Origin: Candidatus Woesearchaeota archaeon
GTDB taxonomy: Archaea; Nanobdellota; Nanobdellia; Pacearchaeales; GW2011-AR1
Length of the DNA stretch: 64,000 bases
Assembly (NCBI GenBank): GCA_964573625.1
Contig: CAZNJU010000001.1
Location: forward strand, 256,661 to 320,660
Direction of reading: 5' to 3'
The translations under genes were made by a program, and so were the position numbers. Of this stretch, positions 2,483 through 57,345 are shown one piece after another; position 1 is the first letter of the stretch, and the number at the start of each line of letters is the position of its first letter. The notes under the pieces are model-generated. The model was not told where the DNA came from, did no database searches, and saw nothing but the letters and a program-made list of their open reading frames with translations.

Positions 2483-4096
2483 TTATGTATTTCGTAACGG
2501 AATATCGTTAAGCTTCTTGCCATTAAGAACATATAACTCTCCAAGGACATCCCATGTAAACGGCTCTTCAGGAGGTTCACTAATCAAATTATTTCGGAGT
2601 ATAATTCCGTTCTCAACTGTTCCCGCTGAACGAGTAGTGATAGTACCTGAAGTAGTCTCGAAGACAAGAAAATATTTAGAACCTTCAAAACTTGACATTC
2701 GTTTAACGTAAAGACCAGTATATATTCCAGAATAATACAAGCGAGTTATATCCGTATTCACGACCTCACGTGAAAAAAGAGAAAAATCCTTTTTAAGAAG
2801 CGCTTCTCTTTCCTGTGCCGCATTTTCATACATTCTAAAATCATTTCCAAGTTCATAGTACTTTGTCATAATCCCATCCACAAATAAATCCGTGTTCATG
2901 ATTTGACCGTTAGCATCGAGAGCCCCACTCTGTTGAAGAGTTTGTATAGAAATAATATTTGGTTTACCTTTGAATTCAAAAGTTATACTATCGAGCACTG
3001 GTTTTTTACCCCAGTAGCCTGTACCCAGTATTCCTGCGTATTTGCCATCTAATTTACGAGTCGCAAGCATCAAGCCATCATAGAAGTGATTTGTTTCTGA
3101 GCCTTGAAATATGTAGAAGTCTGATGCATGATCGCCAGTATATGTCCATTCATCTTTACCGGCATTCCAAGAATAAACATGTGGAGCACCATTAATTGAA
3201 AAATGAATAGATACGTCGCTCGCATCGCTAAAACGTATAGGATATGGATCAACCTGTTTCACACACGAAACAAATTTTTCTTCAGTTCCTTGTACAGGCA
3301 TGTTAAAGTCAATGTAAATATAGTTCTTTAGCTGTTTGACACGATATGCTTCCTGCATAGGAGACTTATCTTTAGTAAATGAAACTGAAACAAATTTTTC
3401 ACATTGGCCATTCTCAAGTAATTGGTCTCTCCACGAAGACAACTTAGAAATATATGGAGTATAACGTTTCAACTCGTCACTTGTAGCTTTTTCAATTCTG
3501 AAAGGTGCTGAATGTAAGACATAAAGCTCATCATTTGAGTTTACAAAAATTCTTGTTTTATACGTGCCAAGCTCATTAGAAGCCAGTTCATCAAGTGCAT
3601 AAACATAGGTACCCTTATCTGCAAAAGCCGCATTTCCCAGACCTTCAATGGAAACAGGTGTTCCCTGCGAATGATAGAACAGAGATGTCTTGCCTGCTAG
3701 AGGTACAGCGTGAAGAATTCTCCAAGGTTCAGGCAGTTCAAAGAAGTTTGCACTTTTTCTATCAGTATTAAAATAGAAATCAATAAGCTGCTCTCGTAAA
3801 GAAGAAGGTATATCATACGAACCTATAGAAGCAACGTTATTAGTTGTCTTAAGAGGTATCCAGGCGTTTCCGCTGAAATAAACTAAGCGTAAGTCATTAG
3901 AAAGATCTATCCCAACTGAAACAACATTCTCAGTCAAAGGATTAGCGCTAGAGTTATATCCAGGTATAAAATTATTAAAAAAGCTCCCTATCGATCCAAA
4001 TTTATCAGTGCTTGCAACAACGATAGCAACAAGAAGAACTGCTGCAATAATCAAAGTAATTATCACACCGCTCGAAAGTTCACCTTTACGGTTCAT
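2483..4096 (-). CDS. large pilin-like / pilus-associated protein (class III signal peptide), 537 aa
   Basis: N-terminus MNRKG|ELSSGVIITLIIAAVLLVAIVV followed by a large beta-rich extracellular domain. Confidence 0.5.
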   Translation of the reverse strand: MNRKGELSSGVIITLIIAAVLLVAIVVASTDKFGSIGSFFNNFIPGYNSSANPLTENVVSVGIDLSNDLRLVYFSGNAWIPLKTTNNVASIGSYDIPSSLREQLIDFYFNTDRKSANFFELPEPWRILHAVPLAGKTSLFYHSQGTPVSIEGLGNAAFADKGTYVYALDELASNELGTYKTRIFVNSNDELYVLHSAPFRIEKATSDELKRYTPYISKLSSWRDQLLENGQCEKFVSVSFTKDKSPMQEAYRVKQLKNYIYIDFNMPVQGTEEKFVSCVKQVDPYPIRFSDASDVSIHFSINGAPHVYSWNAGKDEWTYTGDHASDFYIFQGSETNHFYDGLMLATRKLDGKYAGILGTGYWGKKPVLDSITFEFKGKPNIISIQTLQQSGALDANGQIMNTDLFVDGIMTKYYELGNDFRMYENAAQEREALLKKDFSLFSREVVNTDITRLYYSGIYTGLYVKRMSSFEGSKYFLVFETTSGTITTRSAGTVENGIILRNNLISEPPEEPFTWDVLGELYVLNGKKLNDIPLRNT

Positions 4097-22985: not shown

Positions 22986-24526
22986 TGTGTAAAATCAAGA
23001 ACTTTAAGTTCGCGAGTCTTGACGTTGAACAAAGGAACTTTACAGGGATCAGGCACATTTCCAACCTTTTCTTCGAACTCTGTTTGAGCTTGCCAGCAAC
23101 TTCCCGTTATAATAATGGTCCCATTATAATTTTCGATATCTAGTCTGTGTACCTCTCCTGTGCATAAAACATCAGGTACTTCAGAAATAACAAGAGGATC
23201 ATGTTGAGCATTAGGAACATATACAATACTGGGACTAACTCCGTGTGTTGGAGCAAGATGTCTACGCTTAAGCATGTGTTTTACAGCTCGAGCCGGGCAG
23301 CGATGTGCTTTAGCAGCGCGTAGTTCATCAATTTCATTAATAAATGCATGAATGCTTGCTCCGTGATACATGAGTACTTTGAATTCTTTATCGCCTTCAG
23401 TAAGTTTAATCATTGAAGGATTCGAAACAAGAAAAAGATTAGGGAAAGCATAGAGCGCCTCTCCGTAAAAAGAATCAATCATTGGTTGAGGTTCAGCAAC
23501 ACGAACGGAATCGTGTTGTCCAGGACACATAAACATGGTTATATGTGGAGGCACCTGTTTAATATATGAAGCAAGCTTCGCGTATTGTTCTTTCAAACTC
23601 TTAAGGTTGAGCAGTCTTTCTTGTCCAGGAAAAACACCCACTCCATCTACATTATCTCCTACAAAAAAAATGTAACGTATAGACTTGGCAAGTTCATTTC
23701 CGCTATTGAGCCAATCAAGGAAGCGTTGAAATTCTGTTCCCAAATGCTTTTGGCTACCAACGTGTACATCTGAAACAAAGGCGATAGAATAATCTTCATC
23801 GAATCTTACTTTTTCCTTAAACGAATCAGGAAAAACAATATCGTGTACAAAAACAATTTCTCTGTTTCCAGAACCCTTTACAAGAACCACATCATCTAAT
23901 TGTAATTCACTTGCTTTTGAAAAACAGTCTGCATTTTGTTTGATAAGGGCCTTAACGCTCCCTGTTAAATCCTCAAAAGTAATTATTATATTTTTGTTGG
24001 GAGTTGTTCTTTTATCTGTAACAATTCCAATAAAGGAAAATCGTTGCCTATCTCCCGCAATTTTATTTAAGGATACTAAATTTTGTAAATCCCCTCGTTG
24101 CATAAGAATGCGTTGTAATTGTTGATAACGAGATCTAAAGTGTCCTACAAAATCAGCAATTTCTATCTTTTTATGGTTCTTGGTGTCAGTATAATATATT
24201 TGAAAGGGTAAATTTTCCTTCTTATCTTGACTGATCGGTGCAACAGAAGTTGATTTTTGAATTTCAACAGTAATTCCCATTTTGATAAAAACCGTTTCAA
24301 CTTGTTGCTTCATTTCTCCAGGCAAGCTTTTAACAACGTTTAGAACATATTCTGCATTCTTTGTCAAACTAGATGAAGTAATCATCTTCTGTCCCGAGAC
24401 TTTTTCCAAATTGTTTAAGAGATTCTTCGCAATCTCTGCGTCTGAAAAAGAGGTAAGTAAATCAAACAGATCTTTCTCTAAGAATAATCCTCTCTGTCTA
24501 ATAAATGCAATCGTGTCTTGATTCAT
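22982..24526 (-). CDS. polB: DNA polymerase II (PolD) small subunit DP1 (calcineurin-like phosphoesterase)
   Basis: Mre11-like metallophosphatase motifs (DVHVGS, GDNVDGVG, GQHD) and an N-terminal OB domain. Its stop overlaps the start of DP2. Confidence 0.85.
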   Translation of the reverse strand: MNQDTIAFIRQRGLFLEKDLFDLLTSFSDAEIAKNLLNNLEKVSGQKMITSSSLTKNAEYVLNVVKSLPGEMKQQVETVFIKMGITVEIQKSTSVAPISQDKKENLPFQIYYTDTKNHKKIEIADFVGHFRSRYQQLQRILMQRGDLQNLVSLNKIAGDRQRFSFIGIVTDKRTTPNKNIIITFEDLTGSVKALIKQNADCFSKASELQLDDVVLVKGSGNREIVFVHDIVFPDSFKEKVRFDEDYSIAFVSDVHVGSQKHLGTEFQRFLDWLNSGNELAKSIRYIFFVGDNVDGVGVFPGQERLLNLKSLKEQYAKLASYIKQVPPHITMFMCPGQHDSVRVAEPQPMIDSFYGEALYAFPNLFLVSNPSMIKLTEGDKEFKVLMYHGASIHAFINEIDELRAAKAHRCPARAVKHMLKRRHLAPTHGVSPSIVYVPNAQHDPLVISEVPDVLCTGEVHRLDIENYNGTIIITGSCWQAQTEFEEKVGNVPDPCKVPLFNVKTRELKVLDFTQ

Positions 24527-25728
24527 AGGTCTAAAGAAGTCCTCAAAATCTCCTTTGATTTTGCCATAAGAGGGGTTGGAATCATGAGTTTGATTTCTCT
24601 TGTTCTACCCTGCCTTCCTTTACTTACTACTTGCGCATTAATTATTCCTAACATATCGAATTCTGCCAATATATCTGAAACGCGCCGCTGTGTTAATACT
24701 TCATTTCGTGTACGTTCACAAACCTCTTGATATTTATTATAAATATCTCCTGTGTATAGTCTGTTTTCTCCTGCTGATTCGGTAAGTTGAATAATTGAAA
24801 AGAGTACGAGTTGAAACTGCTTAGGTTCATTCTCAATAATATCCAACATTTTATCACGCTCTATTTTTTTATTAGCCTCATCTATATGTTTCAATCCTAC
24901 TACTGCGCTATTTTCCCTATCGGCAAGCTCTCCAGCAACTCGTAACAAGTCAAGCGCCCTACGAGCATCTCCATGTTCACGAGCAGCAAACGCAGCGCAT
25001 TTAGATATAACTCCTTCTTCAAGAACACCCTCTGTAAATGCCTGTAAAGCTCGTTCCTTCAGTATATCTTGTAACTGTAAAGCATTATAGGGTGGAAAAA
25101 CAAGCTCTTCTTCTCCTAATGAACTGCGAACCCTAGGATCTAGTTCATCCATAAAAGTAAGACTATTACTTATACCTACTATACTAATTTGAGCATTCTT
25201 TAGTTCGGAATTGAGACGTGTTAAGGTATAAAGAAAACTGTCTGATATTTTTTTAACAGCTTGATCTATTTCGTCAAGTACTATAAGAACAATCTGCTTT
25301 CTATTATCAATAAGTTCTACAAATTTATTATAAACACTATCTGTAGGAAGTCCTGTCGCGGGAACGCTTCCTCCTAAATTATGAATAAGTTCTGCTAAAA
25401 TACGATATTCCGTGTCTGCTACTTTCTTTAACTTACAATTTACGTAAACTACTTTTAAAGATTGGCCACCGCTGTCTTTGACCCTCTTAGTGAGTTCGTT
25501 ACTTACGTACTGTACAGATAAAGTCTTACCTGTGCCTGTTTTACCATAAACGAATAAATTACTTACCCGTTCTGTTCTAAGTGCTGGAGCAAGAATAGAA
25601 GCTACTAATTCAATTTGATCATCTCTATGTGGAATCGTTTCAGGGGTGTAATTTATTTGTAAAACACTCTTATTTTTGAACAAACTCTTGCCCGCAACAG
25701 AATCAAATATTTTTCCAAGTTCTGGCAT
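24523..25728 (-). CDS. cdc6: Orc1/Cdc6 replication initiator
   Basis: AAA+ Walker A YGKTGTGKT, Walker B VLDEID and a C-terminal winged-helix domain. It is the first gene of the cdc6-polD operon, directly beside the AT-rich region. Confidence 0.85.
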   Translation of the reverse strand: MPELGKIFDSVAGKSLFKNKSVLQINYTPETIPHRDDQIELVASILAPALRTERVSNLFVYGKTGTGKTLSVQYVSNELTKRVKDSGGQSLKVVYVNCKLKKVADTEYRILAELIHNLGGSVPATGLPTDSVYNKFVELIDNRKQIVLIVLDEIDQAVKKISDSFLYTLTRLNSELKNAQISIVGISNSLTFMDELDPRVRSSLGEEELVFPPYNALQLQDILKERALQAFTEGVLEEGVISKCAAFAAREHGDARRALDLLRVAGELADRENSAVVGLKHIDEANKKIERDKMLDIIENEPKQFQLVLFSIIQLTESAGENRLYTGDIYNKYQEVCERTRNEVLTQRRVSDILAEFDMLGIINAQVVSKGRQGRTREIKLMIPTPLMAKSKEILRTSLDL

Positions 25729-26088
25729 GATACACCTCTTTCTGAAAGAGTATCCATTAGATTATAAACTTATTGTCACTGAAACCTCTATTTCCTATGG
25801 AAATAGCTCTAATTTCATACTTTATAAAAAAGGAGACTGACACCAACGTTTCCACTGGAAAATAATAAAAATAAAAATAAAAATATATCTATTATATACT
25901 ATATTATATATATTATAATATATAAATATTTAAAAGTAAAAAATAGAAAAAAAGAAAAGTAAATTTGTTTTTAAATCTTAGTATATATTCCATACGAAAT
26001 CATGGGGTGAGGGTGTTGTATATGAATAATCGTATAGCTATTAACAATTATACAAAACTTTAAATACCTCCTCCGCTGTTTTTCTAGA
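25729..26088. other. putative chromosomal replication origin (oriC): ORB-like dyads + AT-rich DUE + G-string ORB
   Basis: The dyads TTTCCtatGGAAA (25791-25805) and TTTCCACTGGAAA (25849-25862) match the Pyrococcus/Sulfolobus mini-ORB core TTCCAGTGGAAA. They are followed by about 120 bp of almost pure A/T (25860-25985). After that comes TTCCAtacGAAAtcatGGGGTGAGGGTG (25989-26016), a degenerate dyad plus a G-string as in full ORB elements. The region is adjacent to cdc6. Confidence 0.6.
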
Positions 26089-30144: not shown

Positions 30145-30891
30145 TTAATCTTGTCTTTTGTACTGTAGGAGCGTCACACCTAGTTTACTGGCGGGACGAA
30201 TTAAAGGAGTCGAAGACGAATGAAACCTCCAACCAAGCACTCTTTCAGACTCGCTATACATTTTCTTACCCCTAAATCGTTTCGCATCATGGGTAAAACC
30301 AGGGATTTCGACTTTCCTTAGGCGACTAATAGGCACCTCCGTGATTAAAGAAAAGATTCCTCCCCGAGTTAAACGATTACAAGTTTCTTTCACTAAATCA
30401 TTAAATTCCTTTTCTATAGAAGGAAATTCAGCGTATTCTGGATAATTTCCAATTAAAGGTACTGCTGGGAAAAAGAAATAGGCACTTTCAAAAGCACCCA
30501 ATGAAGAAAGGTCAAATCCTCTGCCAAGGTATTCTTGAACAACCTTCATCCTCTTCGAATCATAACCTGCAATATCACCATGAAGGGCAACCAATTCATC
30601 TAAACCGGCATCTATTTTTTGATCGATACCAAATGGAAAAGGTTCAACTACCACTACTTCTCTCGCACCTGCTCTTAAAAAATCGGCAGAACTGACCATT
30701 TCTAATGGACCAATATCTAAAACTCTTTTATCTTTAATCTGGGAAGGATTAACAACCTTGTTGAATAAAGTTGAGTCGTAAATTCCCATTTGGCCTTCCA
30801 AGTAAGGTTTGGTTTTTCTCGTTAAAATGAGGTCTCCAGTCATAGTAAACAGCCTAGAAAGGTGCTCTTCTAGTAATTCTATCATGGTCAT
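30145..30891 (-). CDS. hypothetical protein (weak Rossmann-like VLDIGP segment)
   Basis: 248 aa with no clear family. A methyltransferase assignment is not supportable. Confidence 0.3.
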   Translation of the reverse strand: MTMIELLEEHLSRLFTMTGDLILTRKTKPYLEGQMGIYDSTLFNKVVNPSQIKDKRVLDIGPLEMVSSADFLRAGAREVVVVEPFPFGIDQKIDAGLDELVALHGDIAGYDSKRMKVVQEYLGRGFDLSSLGAFESAYFFFPAVPLIGNYPEYAEFPSIEKEFNDLVKETCNRLTRGGIFSLITEVPISRLRKVEIPGFTHDAKRFRGKKMYSESERVLGWRFHSSSTPLIRPASKLGVTLLQYKRQD

Positions 30892-31264: not shown

Positions 31265-31801
31265 TTAACGACTAGACCAGTCATAAACAGAACTAATAAT
31301 TGCTTGTCCTTCCAAAAAAGCATGTGCATGCCACATAAGAAAAGGTTCTATTTCTTTCGGTGCTTCCTTTAGATAGGGTGCTTTCGACTCTGCTTCCCAC
31401 ACATTATCGAATAGTCTAGTAAGGGGATGACCTTTGTTCTTATAGATTTGGCGTACCATATCCGTGCCATTGAAACTTTTCCGGGTTTTTAACACCAGAT
31501 CAATATCCTCTTGTCCAATAATGGGTAAACAAGATTCTTCTCTTAAATCTAATTCATAAAAAGCAGCTAGTAAAACAGAACTTCCACCATAATAAGACAT
31601 TGCAGCACATAATCGAGAAAGACCCTCCTCATGACCTTCTAATTTTTTGCGTTGTAGTACGTTCGACGAAACTTGGGATATATGAGCATTATAATCTTCC
31701 TGACAACGTACACGAAAAAGTATACTCTTTGGGAGTTGAGAGACCCCAGCAATACTAATTAACTGATCTACGGCCTTAGAGGATATTTCAAGTTGACTCA
31801 T
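31265..31801 (-). CDS. hypothetical protein
   Basis: 178 aa with no recognisable motif. Confidence 0.3.
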   Translation of the reverse strand: MSQLEISSKAVDQLISIAGVSQLPKSILFRVRCQEDYNAHISQVSSNVLQRKKLEGHEEGLSRLCAAMSYYGGSSVLLAAFYELDLREESCLPIIGQEDIDLVLKTRKSFNGTDMVRQIYKNKGHPLTRLFDNVWEAESKAPYLKEAPKEIEPFLMWHAHAFLEGQAIISSVYDWSSR

Positions 31802-31873: not shown

Positions 31874-32503
31874 ATGGATCCTATAAAAGAAGCATTTCTA
31901 AAAGCAAAGCAAGATATACAGTTTTTGAATGAAAAAATAGACAAATTAACCCAAGAACTAGAAGAATTAAAGCGAACTCTAAATACATCATATCAGTCAG
32001 TTCAGCCAACCAACCAACAGATGATTCCAACACATCAACACCCTCTAGAACACTTAAAAAGCTCAAAAACAAGCTTCTCCACTGGAAATGAAGGGGTTCC
32101 AACCAACCAACCAACAATCCAACCAACCAACCAACGCACTGGAAATGAAGGGGTTCCCGATAAGATCAGCCATCTTGAACGAGTTTCAGAGATCCTAGGA
32201 TCTCTCGATGCATTAAAGAAAGAAGTTCGCATTAAATTTAAGAAGCTTACCCAGCAAGAAATGGCTATATACGGAGCAATTTACCAGCTTCAAGAGCAAG
32301 GAAATATCGTCGATTACACCTTATTAGCCTCAAAACTCAAATTATCAGAGATTTCAATACGTGACTATATTCGAAAAATAGCTACCAAGGGCATCCCTCT
32401 CAACAAAGAAAAAGTCGATAATAAAAAAATTAGGCTCACAATTCCAGAGGATTTGCGCCGAGTAGCAACCCTAGAAACGATTTTAGCTCTCCGCGAGCTA
32501 TAA
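31874..32503 (+). CDS. coiled-coil + C-terminal winged-HTH protein with internal 60-nt direct repeat
   Basis: N-terminal heptads (LNEKIDKLTQELEELKRTL). The tandem repeat actggaaatgaaggggttcc(aa/cg)...ccaaccaaccaac encodes ...TGNEGVPTNQPTIQPTNQRTGNEGVP. The C-terminal wHTH reads QEMAIYGAIYQLQEQGNIVDYTLLASKLKLSEISIRDYIRKI. Confidence 0.45.
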   Translation: MDPIKEAFLKAKQDIQFLNEKIDKLTQELEELKRTLNTSYQSVQPTNQQMIPTHQHPLEHLKSSKTSFSTGNEGVPTNQPTIQPTNQRTGNEGVPDKISHLERVSEILGSLDALKKEVRIKFKKLTQQEMAIYGAIYQLQEQGNIVDYTLLASKLKLSEISIRDYIRKIATKGIPLNKEKVDNKKIRLTIPEDLRRVATLETILALREL

Positions 32504-32603: not shown

Positions 32604-32914
32604 CTCACTTTTTGATCACTCAGAATCATCGCTTATCAGCGTGGATGATCCCTCACTTTTTGCACAAAAAAGGGCCAACAGTACCCTCTTTTTGAATCAA
32701 AATCCAGTAAATATCACTCACTTTTCACTTCCTCCGCTATAGCTTGCTCATAATCCTCACTTTTCTCTTCTTTTTCCCCCTTTTTGAGGCGTTTTTCCTT
32801 GCCCTTAACTCTCACTTTTGCGTATTTTAGGAGTTTAATACGAACTTCTTCACTAATAAACACTCTCTTTTTCCCATTTCCCTCAGTTATCTCCTCAATC
32901 AAGCCCTCACTTTT
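32604..32914. repeat. six dispersed copies of CTCACTTTT
   Basis: Copies at 32604, 32652, 32717, 32756, 32811 and 32906. They span the intergenic region and the 3' end of the minus-strand wHTH gene. Confidence 0.45.
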
Positions 32915-33403
32915 CTGCTTTATAGCATTTATTTGTCCTCTAACCGTACTTCTCTCTTTTCCAAGTAGCCTGGCTAGATCCTCATAGCTCAACTTCAGGC
33001 CCTCTCCGGCATTCAATAGGGTAAAAATCAATAGTCTCTCATTAGCTGATAGTTGATTCAAAATAGCATATAAATTACCTGTTTGAACAGGTGTTTGAAC
33101 ATCTTCTTCAACATCTTCAACAGCTGTTTGTTTGTCTAAAACACCCGTTTTTTTAAACAGCTGTTTGTTTTTTGCCTCAAAATCAACTAAGCTTAAACCT
33201 TCACGGAGCGATTCAATCTCTTCACGAACCGTCGCTAAATCCAATTTTAGGCTGTTTATCTCATCAAACAGCTGTTTGTCATGAGTATCCAGGTGTTTAA
33301 TCCAGCTTCCAACTTTCTCAAGATCCTTTTTAACTCCAGAAAAACCATGTTTGGTTGCTTCCTCTAATTTCTTATCCTTGTTTCCGAAAATCCATCCAAA
33401 CAT
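32714..33403 (-). CDS. coiled-coil + winged-HTH protein (paralogous architecture to 31874..32503)
   Basis: The start is trimmed to MFGWIFGNKDKK, because the track's extension reads through the iteron array. It has the heptad segment LKLDLATVREEIESLREGL and the wHTH ERLLIFTLLNAGEGLKLSYEDLARLLGKERSTVRGQINAI. Confidence 0.45.
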   Translation of the reverse strand: MFGWIFGNKDKKLEEATKHGFSGVKKDLEKVGSWIKHLDTHDKQLFDEINSLKLDLATVREEIESLREGLSLVDFEAKNKQLFKKTGVLDKQTAVEDVEEDVQTPVQTGNLYAILNQLSANERLLIFTLLNAGEGLKLSYEDLARLLGKERSTVRGQINAIKQKSEGLIEEITEGNGKKRVFISEEVRIKLLKYAKVRVKGKEKRLKKGEKEEKSEDYEQAIAEEVKSE

Positions 33404-33720
33404 AAACACCTTAAAACCCCTGTATTTATAAACTTTACGCCTTTTTACACATTCCAACACATCCTCCAACACACCAAAAAAACACCCCTGTTTAAACAGG
33501 CAAACAGCCCATAAACACCCCTTTTTCAAAAGCAAACAGGCAAAAAACACCTTTAAACAGGGTCAAACACCCCTAGAATAATCGACGATAAAACAGCCCA
33601 ACAGCTGTTTAAACACTCTTGCCTCAATTATCAGTGAGGCGCGAAGCGCCGAACGCGCCCGACAACACAAAAAACACCTGTTTTTAGGGCAATTCACAAG
33701 ATATTTAAACTTCAGTACCC
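33404..33720. repeat. iteron-like array: interleaved AAACAG(G/C) and AAACACC(CCT) short direct repeats
   Basis: There are at least seven AAACAGG/AAACAGC units and at least six AAACACC units in about 300 bp. One copy forms the palindrome AAACAGCTGTTTAAAC. The region is non-coding and lies directly upstream of the wHTH gene. Confidence 0.55.
33622..33661. repeat. 40-bp GC-rich hairpin repeat, copy 1
   Basis: cctcaattatcagtGAGGCGCGAAGCGCCGAACGCGCCCg. The GGCGC-GAA-GCGCC stem-loop is embedded in AT-rich DNA. Confidence 0.55.
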
Positions 33721-33730
33721 TTAACAAAAC

Positions 33731-33892
33731 ATGGTATTAGTTTCAGTAGCCATTTCAGCCGTATTGGCCATCATTTTAGGCATTTTAATCCTCGTATTCC
33801 CAAGGCTATTACGTTGGGCCGTAGGATTTTATCTGCTCATTTTCGGAGTCCTGCAACTTCTAGCACAGGCGTACCCTTCTTTCTCCCCATAA
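33731..33892 (+). CDS. small membrane protein (53 aa), DUF3096-like; not in ORF track (<60 aa)
   Basis: MVLVSVAISAVLAIILGILILVFPRLLRWAVGFYLLIFGVLQLLAQAYPSFSP is an ATG..TAA frame of 54 codons. It has two TM helices with the ILGILILVFP...GxYLLIxGVLQLL pattern. Confidence 0.4.
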   Translation: MVLVSVAISAVLAIILGILILVFPRLLRWAVGFYLLIFGVLQLLAQAYPSFSP

Positions 33893-34396: not shown

Positions 34397-34418
34397 CCGC
34401 GAACCCTAAGGAAATATG

Positions 34419-34458
34419 CCTCAATTAAGAGTGAGGCGCGAAGCGCCGAACGCGCCCG
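34419..34458. repeat. 40-bp GC-rich hairpin repeat, copy 2
   Basis: cctcaattaagagtGAGGCGCGAAGCGCCGAACGCGCCCg matches copy 1 at 37 of 40 positions. Confidence 0.55.
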
Positions 34459-34502
34459 GCAACGAGTAGAAAAGGTTAAAAACTATAAATCGATCAAAAA
34501 TC

Positions 34503-55912: not shown

Positions 55913-56109
55913 AAGGAAAGAAAGTCAGTTCCCTATTAATAAGTGAGTATAACGAAGACAGCATCCGTGTTTCGCCTCTTGACGGAGACTACCGCACAAG
56001 ACGTCATCAGCTTGACTTCTGTGTTCGGAATGGGAACAGGTATTTCCTGATGACTGTGACCGTCTTCAATCCATCATCATACCAACCATTTAAAAAGGTT
56101 TCGTTACAC

Positions 56110-57175: not shown

Positions 57176-57218
57176 CTCTGCAAAGCTTTAAAACTCCCTA
57201 GTAGATAATTCCCGTAAG

Positions 57219-57305
57219 CGCGGTTAGTTTAATGGCAAAACATCTGGTTTCCAAAATCGCTCTCTAAGCACTTGAAAACACCAGAGGTCACGGGTTCGAT
57301 TCCCG
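57219..57305 (+). tRNA. tRNA-Gly (anticodon UCC) with ~26-nt intron at canonical 37/38 position
   Basis: Exon 1 is gcgcggtta-gttt-aatggca-aaac-a-tctgg-ttTCCa, the intron is aaatcgctctctaagcacttgaaaac and exon 2 is a-ccaga-ggtc-acggg-ttcgatt-cccgt-accgcgc-a. Removing the intron restores the anticodon stem tctgg/ccaga. Confidence 0.65.
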
Positions 57306-57345
57306 TACCGCGCAGTTTACTCTTCGAGCATAATTCACAGATTAT

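What the first reader, a model, noticed from the sequence alone, without database searches (positions are those of the whole stretch)
33404..33720. Iteron-like array (AAACAGG/C and AAACACC units) upstream of a coiled-coil/wHTH gene
About 300 bp of non-coding DNA is built almost entirely from two interleaved short direct-repeat families: AAACAG(G/C) at least seven times and AAACACC(CCT) at least six times. One copy forms the palindrome AAACAGCTGTTTAAAC. It sits between a wHTH gene (32714-33403) and a tiny membrane-protein gene. Arrays like this usually mark plasmid or viral replication origins (Rep-binding iterons) or strong operator clusters. Nothing else in the window resembles it.
Basis: seen in the sequence. 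Interest (0 to 1): 0.75.

Follow-up and report, generated by a model that had tools for sequence, protein, structure and literature searches.

The report
Phased operator array around wHTH gene
The repeat array is real, but it is not a plasmid or virus origin: it is a chromosomal binding-site cluster, conserved across a whole group of tiny DPANN archaea, that surrounds the promoter of a DNA-binding protein gene and runs into its coding sequence, where it dictates codon choice.

Summary
Observation confirmed and extended. The two "families" are one 6-bp half-site, AAACA(G/C). 25 of the window's 135 copies lie in 33079-33683 (about 0.8 expected). They form direct repeats and AACA-SS-TGTT dyads.

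The array does not stop at the start codon. Four dyads and two half-sites sit in codons 36-109 of the wHTH gene.

In 80 orthologous loci from separate Woese-/Pace-/Nanoarchaeota species genomes:
- Density is about 12 times background, both upstream and inside the gene.
- Upstream units are phased at about 10.6 bp.
- The TATA box sits at -29/-30, so the mRNA is probably leaderless.
- The embedded dyads are held by rare synonymous codons (Leu CTG 90% vs 7%). Amino-acid changes at dyad centres are almost all (over 90%) ones that keep the DNA motif.

No plasmid or virus link was found. Synteny is chromosomal, and a canonical ORB/AT-rich origin lies beside cdc6 7.5 kb away.

Best reading (about 0.55): a cooperative operator array bound by the adjacent coiled-coil wHTH protein. 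It autoregulates that gene's promoter and, in some genomes, neighbouring small membrane-protein genes. Binding is inferred, not shown. A centromere-like or membrane-tether role is not excluded.

The flagged interval also holds a separate conserved GC-rich promoter-proximal element (33619-33670).

The parts
32714..33403 (-). Gene for a 229-aa protein. Parts: conserved N-terminal MFGWxFGxK motif, long helix (residues 7-78), low-confidence linker (83-104), winged-HTH (111-182), basic/acidic C-terminal helix.
   Evidence: ORF and translation. AF2 model: pLDDT 70 overall, 79-89 across most of the wHTH, below 50 in the linker. Foldseek places the C-terminal domain with MarR/ArsR/Lrs14-type wHTH proteins. 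No Pfam or NCBIfam family reaches threshold. Orthologues are 58-76% identical across the listed homologues and the 80 loci.
33404..33410 (+). Half-site AAACACC (GGTGTTT on the gene strand) directly abutting the ATG. It lies between the TATA box and the presumed transcription start.
   Evidence: In orthologues, a consensus half-site sits at -16/-15 in 27 of 80 loci, and a relaxed TGTT[TG] site in 46 of 80.
33423..33432 (-). TATA box (TTTATAAATA on the gene strand), 29 nt upstream of the ATG. This implies a leaderless mRNA.
   Evidence: A TATA box starts at -30/-29 in 61 of 80 loci.
33452..33476 (+). Degenerate units (CCAACAC x2), variants of the half-site.
33477..33574 (+). Core of the upstream array: seven AAACA(C/G) units in phase at about 10.6 bp (33480, 33502, 33513, 33534, 33545, 33555, 33565), plus the palindrome CCTGTTTAAACAGG.
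   Evidence: Across 80 loci the spacing autocorrelation peaks at 10-12, 21-22, 31-33, 42-43, 53, 64 and 74 bp. There are 7.0 units in one orientation against 1.7 in the other.
33580..33590 (.). Motif B (AATCGACGATA; family consensus TATCGACGATA), a second conserved near-palindrome.
   Evidence: The core TCG[AT]CGA is found at -200..-150 in 25 loci. It is found again inside the gene at codons 56-59 in 31 loci, where Ser is TCG in 88% against 14% background. Its binding partner is unknown.
33591..33616 (.). AAACAGCC-AACAGCTGTT-TAAACAC: the upstream dyad with overlapping TGTTTAAACA palindrome.
   Evidence: An upstream dyad falls in the -200..-100 bins 72 times across the 80 loci.
33619..33670 (+). 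Conserved GC-rich element (GCCTCAATTATCAGTGAGGCGCGAAGCGCCGAACGCGCCCGAC). It is a separate system from the half-site array and lies upstream of the promoter of the divergent gene.
   Evidence: A second copy at 34408-34465 has a 47-nt core that is 44/47 identical. There are 105 copies in 80 loci. All lie upstream of the wHTH gene and all are on the opposite strand. The median distance from the GAA loop to the next ATG is 64 nt, with a TATA-like box directly after the element. Not in Rfam.
33672..33683 (.). Dyad AAACACCTGTTT, between the GC element and the TATA box of the DUF3096 gene.
   Evidence: DUF3096 genes preceded by dyads recur in L004, L024 and L040.
33701..33709 (+). TATA-like box of the divergent gene, about 22 nt before its ATG.
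33731..33892 (+). Divergent gene for a 53-aa DUF3096 membrane protein.
   Evidence: Pfam PF11295, E = 2.7e-11.
33266..33277 (.). Intragenic dyad 1, AAACAGCTGTTT = codons 43-46 (KQLF).
   Evidence: In 81 sequences: Gln is CAG 75/75; Leu is CTG 60/67 (7% background); the Val variant is GTG 13/13; Phe is TTT 75/75.
33290..33298 (-). Intragenic half-site (AAACACCT on the gene strand), codons 36-38 (KHL).
   Evidence: His is CAC 73/78 here; over all motif codons His CAC is 94% against 17% background.
33155..33166 (.). Intragenic dyad 2, AAACAGCTGTTT = codons 80-83 (KQ[L/V]F).
   Evidence: Gln CAG 77/77; Val GTG 41/41; Leu CTG 34/35.
33119..33130 (.). Intragenic dyad 3, AACAGCTGTT = codons 92-95 (QT[A/G/P]V), in the low-confidence linker.
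   Evidence: ACA 61/66. The centre residue is Ala GCT 53, Gly GGT 12 or Pro CCT 7, all of which keep an S-S centre. GTT 73/77.
33077..33097 (.). Intragenic dyad 4, AACAGGTGTT (codons 103-106), plus the half-site CCTGTTT (codons 107-109).
   Evidence: CAA 80/81; ACA 70/79; centre Ala GCT 47, Pro CCT 27, Gly GGT 5; CAA 81/81; ACA 80/80. Third-position identity is 0.90 over residues 101-110, the highest in the gene.
32604..32913 (+). Second direct-repeat array, of a different unit: CTCACTTT x6 (AAAGTGAG on the gene strand). It covers the 3' half of the gene and the intergenic region between the convergent genes.
   Evidence: All 6 window copies are here. 282 of 303 copies in the 80 loci lie at +400..+900, all in one orientation. 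Binding partner unknown.

Best explanation
The interval is the upstream half of a roughly 600-bp cluster of binding sites (33077-33683) centred on the leaderless promoter of a lineage-specific coiled-coil/winged-HTH protein gene.

The unit is the 6-bp half-site AAACA(G/C), extended to about GG(G/C)TGTTTAA on the gene strand. Upstream of the TATA box it forms a head-to-tail array with a 10.6-bp period, so all copies face one side of the helix. This array is interrupted by AACA-SS-TGTT and TGTTTAAACA palindromes. One copy sits between the TATA box and the start codon. Four dyads and two half-sites lie inside codons 36-109.

Proposed mechanism:
1. The product of the adjacent gene dimerises or oligomerises through its N-terminal coiled coil.
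2. It occupies these sites cooperatively, along one face of the DNA upstream and at the dyads downstream.
3. It thereby sets its own transcription. The promoter-proximal site would block RNA polymerase recruitment. The flanking clusters would provide cooperativity by looping or wrapping, or act as roadblocks.
4. In this window it also sets transcription of the divergent DUF3096 gene. In other genomes it would regulate neighbouring MscL, DUF3096, DUF5654 and DUF378 genes.

Shown here: motif enrichment, conservation across 80 species-level genomes, helical phasing, promoter geometry, synonymous-site constraint on the embedded sites, and the wHTH fold.

Inferred, not shown: that this protein, rather than one of the two neighbouring wHTH proteins, is the binder; the direction of regulation; and looping.
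For: - Local enrichment in the window.
- In 80 orthologous loci there are 8.6 half-sites per 400 bp upstream and 8.5 in the first 350 bp of the gene, against 0.69 per 400 bp elsewhere. Dyads number 1.06, 3.04 and 0.45 (the last per roughly 11 kb of remaining locus). They fall at fixed positions.
- 10.6-bp periodicity over at least 7 turns, with a 4:1 orientation bias.
- TATA box at -29/-30 in 61 of 80 loci. A half-site at -16/-15 in 27 of 80, relaxed in 46 of 80.
- Synonymous constraint: normalised codon entropy is 0.18 at motif codons against 0.70 at other conserved-residue columns (Mann-Whitney p = 8e-8). Rare codons are fixed: Leu CTG, His CAC, Gln CAG.
- Residue changes at dyad centres are almost entirely confined to A/G/P (GCT/GGT/CCT) and L/V (CTG/GTG), which keep AACA-SS-TGTT. 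A few exceptions exist (Ser TCT 4, Ala GCG 3, Thr ACT 1, Val GTT 1).
- These codons lie in the AF2 low-confidence linker.
- Homologues at 30-50% identity keep the VQT/KQT-type codon repeats even where the upstream array shrinks.
- The C-terminal domain is a MarR/ArsR/Lrs14-like wHTH.
- Secondary dyad clusters lie upstream of small membrane-protein genes near the locus.
- The array is stable between samples.
Against: - No binding data exist, and none can be computed here.
- Three wHTH genes are syntenic: the 229-aa, 209-aa and 100-aa proteins. At least four motif classes are present (A, B, AAAGTGAG and the GC element), so the assignment of protein to motif is open.
- The recognition helix is invariant in the sample, so no protein-motif covariation test was possible.
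- The consensus promoter-proximal site is present in only about a third to a half of loci.
- Abutting 6-bp half-sites are unusually close for a classical wHTH dimer. This point rests on general knowledge of wHTH-DNA complexes.
- Ten to twenty-five sites is far more than simple autoregulation needs.
- Uniqueness of the array within a genome could be checked only over the 64-kb window and about 0.9 Mb of flanks. The metagenome scan was uninformative.
Confidence: 0.55

Rival explanations
1. Chromosome-organising site: centromere-like, or a DNA-membrane tether. The coiled-coil wHTH protein would nucleate on the phased repeats and dyads and coat 0.6-1.3 kb including its own gene, as ParR/parC, TubR/tubC, AspA, ParB/parS (one parS lies inside spo0J), Noc or RacA do. 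Autoregulation would be a by-product.
For: - Phased 10-11-bp direct repeats flank the promoter of the binder's own gene.
- Sites lie inside the gene.
- The site count is far above what regulation needs.
- The protein has a long coiled coil and a basic tail.
- An N-terminal hydrophobic-aromatic plus basic motif, M-x-F-W-x-F-x-K-K, is conserved even at about 25% identity. From memory it resembles the MinE and Noc membrane-targeting peptides. This is a lead, not a test.
- The locus lies 7.5 kb from the cdc6 origin in this window and 6.5 kb in L213.
Against: - No ParA/ParM/TubZ/SegA-type NTPase lies in the conserved neighbourhood.
- Origin proximity is not universal. L212 has no cdc6 within 10 kb.
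- The upstream array shrinks to 2-3 sites in homologues at about 50% identity.
- Secondary sites sit in promoters of specific small genes, which suits a regulator.
Confidence: 0.15
2. The array is a protein-binding operator, but its binder is another factor: the convergent 209-aa coiled-coil wHTH paralogue-like protein, the 100-aa wHTH protein, or a factor encoded elsewhere. The 229-aa gene would then be a target, not the binder.
For: - Both other wHTH genes co-occur with the locus, in 79 of 80 and 75 of 80 loci.
- Several motif classes need binders.
- No covariation links the 229-aa protein to motif A.
Against: - The sites are centred on, and embedded in, the 229-aa gene, and travel with it even in distant homologues.
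- The common arrangement is for a regulator's own promoter to carry its operator. This is general knowledge.
- The 209-aa gene carries different repeat DNA in its linker.
Confidence: 0.12
3. A replication origin with its own initiator. This could be a plasmid or virus-derived replicon, or a second chromosomal origin with binding sites embedded in the initiator gene, as phage lambda ori lies inside gene O, or as WhiP pairs with oriC3 in Sulfolobus.
For: - The array is iteron-like, next to and inside a DNA-binding protein gene.
- A wHTH initiator adjacent to its origin has precedent in archaea (from memory).
- The array marks the border between a conserved block and a variable block.
Against: - There is no Rep, primase or helicase-loader domain.
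- No AT-rich unwinding stretch is adjacent. GC is 0.33-0.47 in 100-bp windows.
- A canonical ORB-DUE-ORB origin lies beside cdc6 7.5 kb away.
- Cumulative GC skew does not turn at 33 kb.
- No integrase, att site or tRNA border is present, and there is no plasmid, phage or viral match.
- The gene is a vertically conserved chromosomal gene.
Confidence: 0.04
4. This is not a protein-binding array. On this view the repeats arise from slippage or gene conversion of a repetitive coding segment (VQT/KQ peptide repeats) that spilled upstream, or they act through DNA shape or RNA structure.
For: - The intragenic part is a near-tandem 12-nt repeat in some homologues.
- The neighbouring 209-aa gene also has simple-repeat DNA in its linker.
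- The palindromes could form hairpins.
Against: - The same nucleotides are fixed at synonymous sites across 80 species-level genomes, including non-preferred codons.
- The upstream copies are non-coding, yet phased and placed relative to the TATA box.
- The upstream array lies outside the predicted mRNA, which argues against an RNA-level role.
- T3A2-3 tracts containing a TpA step are not classical bending tracts (from memory).
Confidence: 0.06

Closest known systems
Ss-LrpB control region (Sulfolobus solfataricus): an autoregulated archaeal regulator with several regularly spaced boxes upstream of its own promoter, bound cooperatively with DNA wrapping (from memory)
   Same: An archaeal regulator gene preceded by regularly spaced, cooperatively usable sites upstream of its own TATA box. 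A concentration-dependent autoregulation logic is plausible.
   Different: The fold differs: Lrp/AsnC versus coiled coil plus MarR/ArsR-like wHTH. Ss-LrpB has three 15-bp palindromic boxes. Here there are 7-16 phased 10-11-bp direct repeats plus dyads. No sites are embedded in the Ss-LrpB coding sequence.
parC/ParR of plasmid R1, tubC/TubR of pBtoxis, and omega-protein heptad arrays of pSM19035 (from memory)
   Same: Short direct repeats at helical or near-helical spacing flank the promoter of the operon that encodes the binding protein. The same array serves as operator and as a higher-order nucleoprotein scaffold.
   Different: Those systems are plasmid-borne and always pair with a ParM, TubZ or ParA NTPase gene. 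Here the locus is chromosomal and conserved across the lineage, no NTPase partner is present, and sites extend into the coding sequence.
Phage lambda ori inside gene O; parS inside spo0J of Bacillus subtilis (from memory)
   Same: Binding sites for a DNA-binding protein lie inside that protein's own coding sequence. In lambda O they lie in an inter-domain segment, so the DNA element constrains the protein sequence.
   Different: Lambda ori has an adjacent AT-rich unwinding region and a replication function. parS is a single 16-bp site bound by a ParB CTPase. Neither feature is present here.
Auxiliary operators inside coding regions: lac O2 in lacZ, gal OI in galE, purR O2 in purR (from memory)
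   Same: Operators lie downstream of the promoter within an ORF and cooperate with promoter-proximal operators. purR is autoregulated.
   Different: Those are single auxiliary sites in bacterial systems. Here four dyads and two half-sites are held by synonymous-site selection across 80 species-level genomes, and they appear to dictate the sequence of a disordered linker.
MarR/ArsR/Lrs14-type winged-HTH regulators (e.g. MepR 4lll, AbfR2 6cmv, SmtB 1r23)
   Same: The C-terminal domain has this fold: Foldseek E of 5e-4 to 2e-3, target TM 0.55-0.70.
   Different: No Pfam or NCBIfam family threshold is reached. The family adds a 70-residue N-terminal coiled coil, a conserved N-terminal MFxWxF-KK motif and a repeat-encoded linker. 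It is narrow: 287 clusters at 50% identity.

Membership tests
Iteron-type plasmid or viral replication origin (Rep plus iterons) | An adjacent gene encodes a Rep/initiator-family protein | tested here: not met
   Pfam, NCBIfam and PHROGs give only weak HTH matches. No Rep, primase or helicase domain is found.
Iteron-type plasmid or viral replication origin (Rep plus iterons) | An AT-rich unwinding element lies next to the iterons | tested here: not met
   100-bp GC values are 0.33-0.47 across 32.4-34.0 kb, close to the window mean of about 0.39.
Iteron-type plasmid or viral replication origin (Rep plus iterons) | Mobile-element context: integrase, att or tRNA border, patchy distribution, matches to plasmids or viruses | tested here: not met
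   Chromosomal synteny is conserved in 80 loci. There are no plasmid, phage or viral matches, no hallmark genes, and the nearest tRNA is 13 kb away.
Iteron-type plasmid or viral replication origin (Rep plus iterons) | Several directly repeated binding units (typically 17-22 bp) | tested here: inconclusive
   Direct repeats are present, but the units are 10-11 bp and are mixed with dyads.
Archaeal Orc1/Cdc6 origin (ORB elements) | ORB or mini-ORB repeats flank an AT-rich region beside orc1/cdc6 | tested here: not met
   The array has no ORB-like sequence. ORB-like elements TTCCTATGGAAA, TTCCACTGGAAA and TCCATACGAAA..GGGGT flank an AT-rich stretch at 25792-26010, beside cdc6 (coordinates confirmed).
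Plasmid-type partition centromere (parC/tubC/parS with a centromere-binding protein) | Phased repeats around the promoter of the binder's operon | tested here: met
Plasmid-type partition centromere (parC/tubC/parS with a centromere-binding protein) | A partner NTPase gene (ParA, ParM, TubZ or SegA) in the same locus | tested here: not met
   None lies within +/-10 kb in the window, L212 or L213, or in the conserved block of the 80 loci.
Autoregulatory operator of an archaeal transcription factor | A site overlapping or just downstream of the TATA box and transcription start of the regulator's own gene | tested here: met
   In the window, 33404-33410 abuts the ATG and lies 13 nt from the TATA box. 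It is met in 27-46 of 80 orthologous loci.
Autoregulatory operator of an archaeal transcription factor | The regulator binds the sites and changes transcription | not testable with these tools
   Needs EMSA, footprinting or in vitro transcription.
MarR/ArsR-like winged-HTH proteins | Winged-HTH fold | tested here: met
   The AF2 wHTH domain has pLDDT of 79-89 across most of its length. Top Foldseek hits are MepR, AbfR2, SmtB and CadC.
MarR/ArsR-like winged-HTH proteins | Sequence-family membership at a curated threshold | tested here: not met
   The best Pfam hit, HTH_38, scores 24.4 bits against a cut-off of 27. The PDB profile search finds nothing below E = 0.01.
Rfam RNA families (for the GC-rich element at 33619-33670) | A match to a curated covariance model | tested here: not met
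   There is no hit at gathering thresholds. Only chance-level hits appear at E up to 10.

The most novel reading that the evidence does not exclude
The array and its gene form a chromosome-organising centre of Nano-/Pace-/Woesearchaeota. A coiled-coil wHTH protein with a membrane-targeting-like N-terminus would polymerise over about 1.3 kb of phased repeats that include its own coding sequence. It would act as a centromere or DNA-membrane anchor in archaea that have no recognised segregation machinery. The protein's linker sequence would then be a by-product of the DNA element.
Probability: 0.15. Interest if true: 0.85.

Novelty: new variant of a known kind. Interest (0 to 1): 0.62.

Why it matters
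Almost nothing is known about gene regulation or chromosome organisation in DPANN archaea, because almost none are cultured. This locus offers a ready-made, testable pairing of a protein and a DNA site that is conserved across a large order-level radiation.

It is also an unusually clear natural case of binding sites embedded in coding sequence. Four dyads are held by non-preferred synonymous codons. Nearly all amino-acid substitutions at the dyad centres are those that preserve the DNA motif. All of this lies inside a predicted disordered linker. In other words, the DNA element appears to write part of the protein.

If the binder is confirmed, the strict 10.6-bp phasing predicts a wrapped or filamentous complex that can be studied in vitro. 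The link to MscL and other small membrane-protein genes, together with the conserved hydrophobic N-terminus, suggests a possible membrane-coupled regulator.

Tried and rejected
1. Mobile-element or replication-origin reading. Rejected on the evidence in the membership table.

2. Viral-contig scans. The GC-element core gave four hits, all in unrelated contigs of 58-60% GC. TGTTTAAACAGCTGTTT gave five hits, all isolated palindromes without arrays.

3. Metagenome scan for three phased units. It therefore says nothing about whether the array is unique in a genome.

4. Rfam searches at E-value thresholds on both intergenic regions gave only chance-level hits.

5. Structure of the GC element. RNAalifold returned no consensus. 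The central GGCGC-GAA-GCGCC hairpin is mostly invariant, with a few compensatory variants. The first hairpin could not be aligned in register. RNA versus DNA function is undecided.

6. The idea that motif A controls the whole upstream cassette array. Rejected: GC-element copies distal to the gene have half-sites only at background rate (13 of 83, against 13% expected).

7. The window dyads at 3653 and 40901 as regulon members. Rejected: both lie in coding sequence, and DUF5654 homologues lack dyads (0 of 17).

8. Pairwise comparison of the 229-aa and 209-aa proteins. No detectable sequence similarity, so 'paralogue' refers to shared architecture only.

9. Literature searches for the motif or a DPANN origin or regulator description found nothing relevant.

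10. An intrinsic DNA-curvature claim was considered and dropped. The tracts contain TpA steps, and no reliable parameter set was available.
Full report
**1. What is in the sequence**

The interval 33404-33720 lies between a minus-strand gene (32714-33403, 229 aa) and a plus-strand 53-aa DUF3096 gene (33731-33892).

- The window holds 135 copies on both strands, against 87 +/- 9 in dinucleotide-preserving shuffles.
- 25 of them lie in 33079-33683.
- The two densest 300-bp windows hold 15 and 10 copies, against a mean of 0.63.
- Six of the eight AACA-SS-TGTT dyads in the window are here.
- In the intergenic part, 12 copies point one way and 3 the other.
- Seven copies (33480, 33502, 33513, 33534, 33545, 33555, 33565) sit at multiples of about 10.6 bp.

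The array does not stop at the start codon. Dyads at 33267, 33156, 33119 and 33086, and half-sites at 33293 and 33079, lie inside the gene.

**2. Organism and gene**

The 229-aa protein has more than 2162 homologues. The listed ones are 60-76% identical, and the few that carry a source name are labelled Pacearchaeota or Nanoarchaeota.

A scan of one genome per species found 360 genomes with a relative. The best 80 loci were fetched.

At 50% clustering the family has only 287 clusters with E <= 1e-3 among 1.84 billion representatives. It is therefore lineage-specific.

The AF2 model has these parts:
- a long helix, residues 7-78;
- a low-confidence linker (pLDDT below 50 at 83-87 and 92-101);
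- a wHTH at 111-182 (pLDDT 79-89 across most of it);
- a C-terminal helix.

Foldseek places the wHTH with MarR/ArsR/Lrs14-type regulators. No Pfam, NCBIfam or PDB sequence family reaches threshold.

**3. Not a mobile element and not the origin**

- Downstream synteny is fixed. It runs through a convergent 209-aa coiled-coil wHTH gene (79 of 80 loci), a 100-aa wHTH gene (75 of 80), Lhr (66 of 80) and a Metallophos (metallophosphatase-domain) gene (46 of 80). In the window, L001 and L213 it continues to cdc6 and PolD. L212 lacks cdc6 within 10 kb.
- No Rep, integrase or viral hallmark was found.
- Plasmid blastn, phage tblastn and two viral-contig pattern scans found nothing related.
- The array region is not AT-rich.
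- Beside cdc6 (about 24523-25728) there is a textbook archaeal origin. TTCCTATGGAAA (25792), TTCCACTGGAAA (25850) and TCCATACGAAATCATGGGGTG (25989) flank a roughly 100-bp AT-rich tract.

**4. Conservation of the array**

In the 80 loci, half-site density is 8.6 per 400 bp upstream and 8.5 in the first 350 bp of the gene, against 0.69 per 400 bp elsewhere. Dyads number 1.06, 3.04 and 0.45 (the last per roughly 11 kb of remaining locus).

Positions are fixed:
- upstream units peak at -200..-100;
- an upstream dyad falls in the -200..-100 bins 72 times across the 80 loci;
- intragenic dyads fall at +100-150 (71), +200-250 (65), +250-300 (52) and +300-350 (55).

The spacing autocorrelation of same-orientation units peaks at 10-12, 21-22, 31-33, 42-43, 53, 64 and 74-75 bp. 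This is the helical repeat, sustained over at least seven turns. The unit consensus is about GG(G/C)TGTTTAA.

A TATA box starts at -30/-29 in 61 of 80 loci, which implies a leaderless mRNA. A consensus half-site lies at -16/-15 in 27 loci, and a relaxed one in 46.

The array is identical in two independent assemblies of this organism.

**5. The embedded sites are selected as DNA**

Codon choice in a codon alignment of 81 sequences:

| Codons | Residues | Codon usage |
|---|---|---|
| 43-46 | KQLF | AAA CAG CTG TTT. Gln CAG 75/75; Leu CTG 60/67; Val variant GTG 13/13 |
| 80-83 | KQ[L/V]F | CAG 77/77; GTG 41/41; CTG 34/35 |
| 92-95 and 103-106 | QT[A/G/P]V | CAA ACA [GCT/GGT/CCT] GTT |
| 36-38 | KHL | AAA CAC CT |

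- Across all motif codons, usage departs sharply from the rest of the gene: Leu CTG 52% against 7% (90-97% at the two dyad Leu codons), His CAC 94% against 17%, Thr ACA 93% against 33%, Ala GCT 92% against 43%.
- Normalised codon entropy is 0.18 at motif-A codons, against 0.70 at other conserved-residue columns (p = 8e-8).
- Third-position identity peaks at 0.83-0.90 over residues 91-110, which is the AF2 low-confidence linker.
- The residues tolerated at dyad centres are chemically unlike each other (Ala, Gly, Pro; Leu, Val). They share codons that keep AACA-SS-TGTT.
- Homologues at 30-40% identity still carry VQT/KQT peptides in this linker.
- Homologues at about 50% identity keep GCTGTTCAAACAGCTGTTCAAACAG even though their upstream array shrinks to 2-3 sites.

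I conclude that the DNA motif, not the peptide, is the primary object of selection.

**6. Other elements in and near the interval**

a. Motif B, TATCGACGATA (window 33580-33590). It recurs at about -175, and inside the gene at codons 56-59 with rare TCG codons.

b. A GC-rich element (33619-33670).
 - A second copy lies at 34408-34465.
 - The 80 loci hold 105 copies, all upstream of the gene and all on the opposite strand. The 64-kb window has only these two.
 - It sits immediately upstream of a TATA-like box. The median distance from its GAA loop to the next ATG is 64 nt.
 - The genes it precedes are small and diverse: median 84 aa, about half with membrane-spanning segments, 70 clusters among 96.
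 - It is not in Rfam, and its structure could not be settled.
 - Copies distal to the gene carry motif A only at background rate, so it is a separate system.

c. A second array, AAAGTGAG on the gene strand (CTCACTTT x6 at 32604-32913). Of 303 copies in the loci, 282 lie at +400..+900, all in one orientation. Half lie in the 3' coding region and half after the stop codon.

d. Secondary clusters of motif A (with or without motif B) at -450..-1700. They lie upstream of MscL (4 loci), DUF3096 (3 loci plus the window), DUF5654 and DUF378 genes.

**7. Mechanism**

The best-supported reading is a cooperative operator array for the adjacent coiled-coil wHTH protein.
- The phased direct repeats present all sites on one DNA face, as expected for side-by-side oligomerisation.
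- The dyads suit dimers.
- The site between the TATA box and the start is in the classical archaeal repression position.
- The intragenic dyads could act as loop anchors or roadblocks.
- The neighbouring membrane-protein promoters that carry dyads point to a small local regulon.

The binder, the sign of regulation and the looping are all inferred.

The large number of sites, the coiled coil, the basic tail, the conserved hydrophobic N-terminus and the frequent proximity to oriC keep a centromere-like or tethering role open. However, no partner NTPase gene is present, and origin linkage is not universal.

**8. Comparison and novelty**

The locus works like known multi-site autoregulatory operators (Ss-LrpB) and like operator-centromeres (parC/ParR, tubC/TubR). 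Like lambda ori in gene O, parS in spo0J and lac O2, gal OI and purR O2, it places sites inside coding DNA.

It fails the defining tests for an iteron replicon, an ORB origin and a plasmid-type partition locus.

The following appear undescribed:
- conservation across the whole lineage;
- strict helical phasing;
- four dyads fixed by synonymous selection within a disordered linker;
- the stacking of at least three further motif systems on one 1.3-kb gene locus.

Literature searches found nothing. I rate it a new variant of a known kind, with interest 0.62.

Noticed in passing
window 33619-33670 and 34408-34465; 105 copies in L003-L082: A conserved GC-rich element of about 50 nt (GCC[T/A]CAATAA..GTGAGGCGCGAAGCGCCGAACGCGCCCGAC). 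It is found only on the variable side of the wHTH gene and always on the opposite strand. It sits immediately upstream of the TATA box of small, highly diverse genes (membrane proteins, AbrB-like antitoxins). This gives a cassette-like array with 1-4 copies within the 6-kb upstream flank fetched per locus. It is not in Rfam. Its role (promoter element, sRNA or recombination site) is undecided.
   Followed up: partly
window 32604-32913 (+ strand CTCACTTT x6): A second direct-repeat array (AAAGTGAG on the gene strand) covers the 3' half of the wHTH gene and the intergenic region between the convergent genes. It is conserved in the 80 loci: 282 of 303 copies lie at +400..+900, all in one orientation. 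It has its own synonymous-codon constraint (Ser165 AGT 95%, Val197 GTG 100%). Its binder is unknown.
   Followed up: partly
window 25792-26010, beside cdc6 (about 24523-25728, - strand): A canonical archaeal replication origin. ORB-like TTCCTATGGAAA, TTCCACTGGAAA and TCCATACGAAATCATGGGGTG flank a roughly 100-bp AT-rich tract with AT tandem repeats. PolD small and large subunit genes follow cdc6.
   Followed up: partly
window 32098-32135, inside the 209-aa gene (31874-32503, +): The linker of the second coiled-coil wHTH protein is encoded by tetranucleotide-type repeats: (CCAA)n here, and (CAGA)n or (CCAA)n-type tracts in 50 or more orthologous loci. A 4-nt repeat period inside an ORF is the classic signature of slippage-prone, possibly phase-variable, genes. 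This was not tested.
   Followed up: partly
window 32615-32665 (- strand); orthologous positions in L015, L036, L049, L052: A conserved hairpin flanked by GTGAGG and CTGA lies downstream of the wHTH gene's stop codon, after a terminator-like hairpin with a U-run. RNA fold z-score is -3.0. Only chance-level C/D-box hits appear in Rfam. It could be a 3'UTR element or a small RNA.
   Followed up: partly
residues 1-12 of the 229-aa protein (window 33368-33403, -): The N-terminal motif M-F-x-W-x-F-x-K-K is nearly invariant and persists in homologues at about 25% identity. From memory it resembles short membrane-targeting peptides such as those of MinE and Noc.
   Followed up: no
window 33580-33590; codons 56-59 in orthologues: Motif B (TATCGACGATA, a near-palindrome) often directly follows a motif-A dyad. 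It is embedded in the coding sequence with rare TCG codons in most orthologues, but is degenerate at that position in this window (AACCGTCGCTAA at 33227-33238).
   Followed up: partly
window 30145-30891 (-) and 31265-31801 (-): Two ORFs (248 aa and 178 aa, no family hits) interrupt the otherwise conserved block of wHTH genes and Lhr. They have homologues in 1 and 0 of the 80 loci, so they look like lineage-specific insertions.
   Followed up: no
window 57218-57314 (+): Rfam calls a 97-nt tRNA that ARAGORN does not report. It is probably an intron-containing archaeal tRNA. It lies next to tRNA-Leu, tRNA-Arg and a 5S rRNA gene (55953-56067).
   Followed up: no
L111 (metagenome contig Ga0209491_10024928), about 1040-1400: An unrelated contig of 48% GC has two inverted blocks of GTGTTTTGTG / AAACACCGCA 10-nt repeats that face each other. 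This is an iteron-like region from another organism, found by chance in the pattern scan.
   Followed up: no
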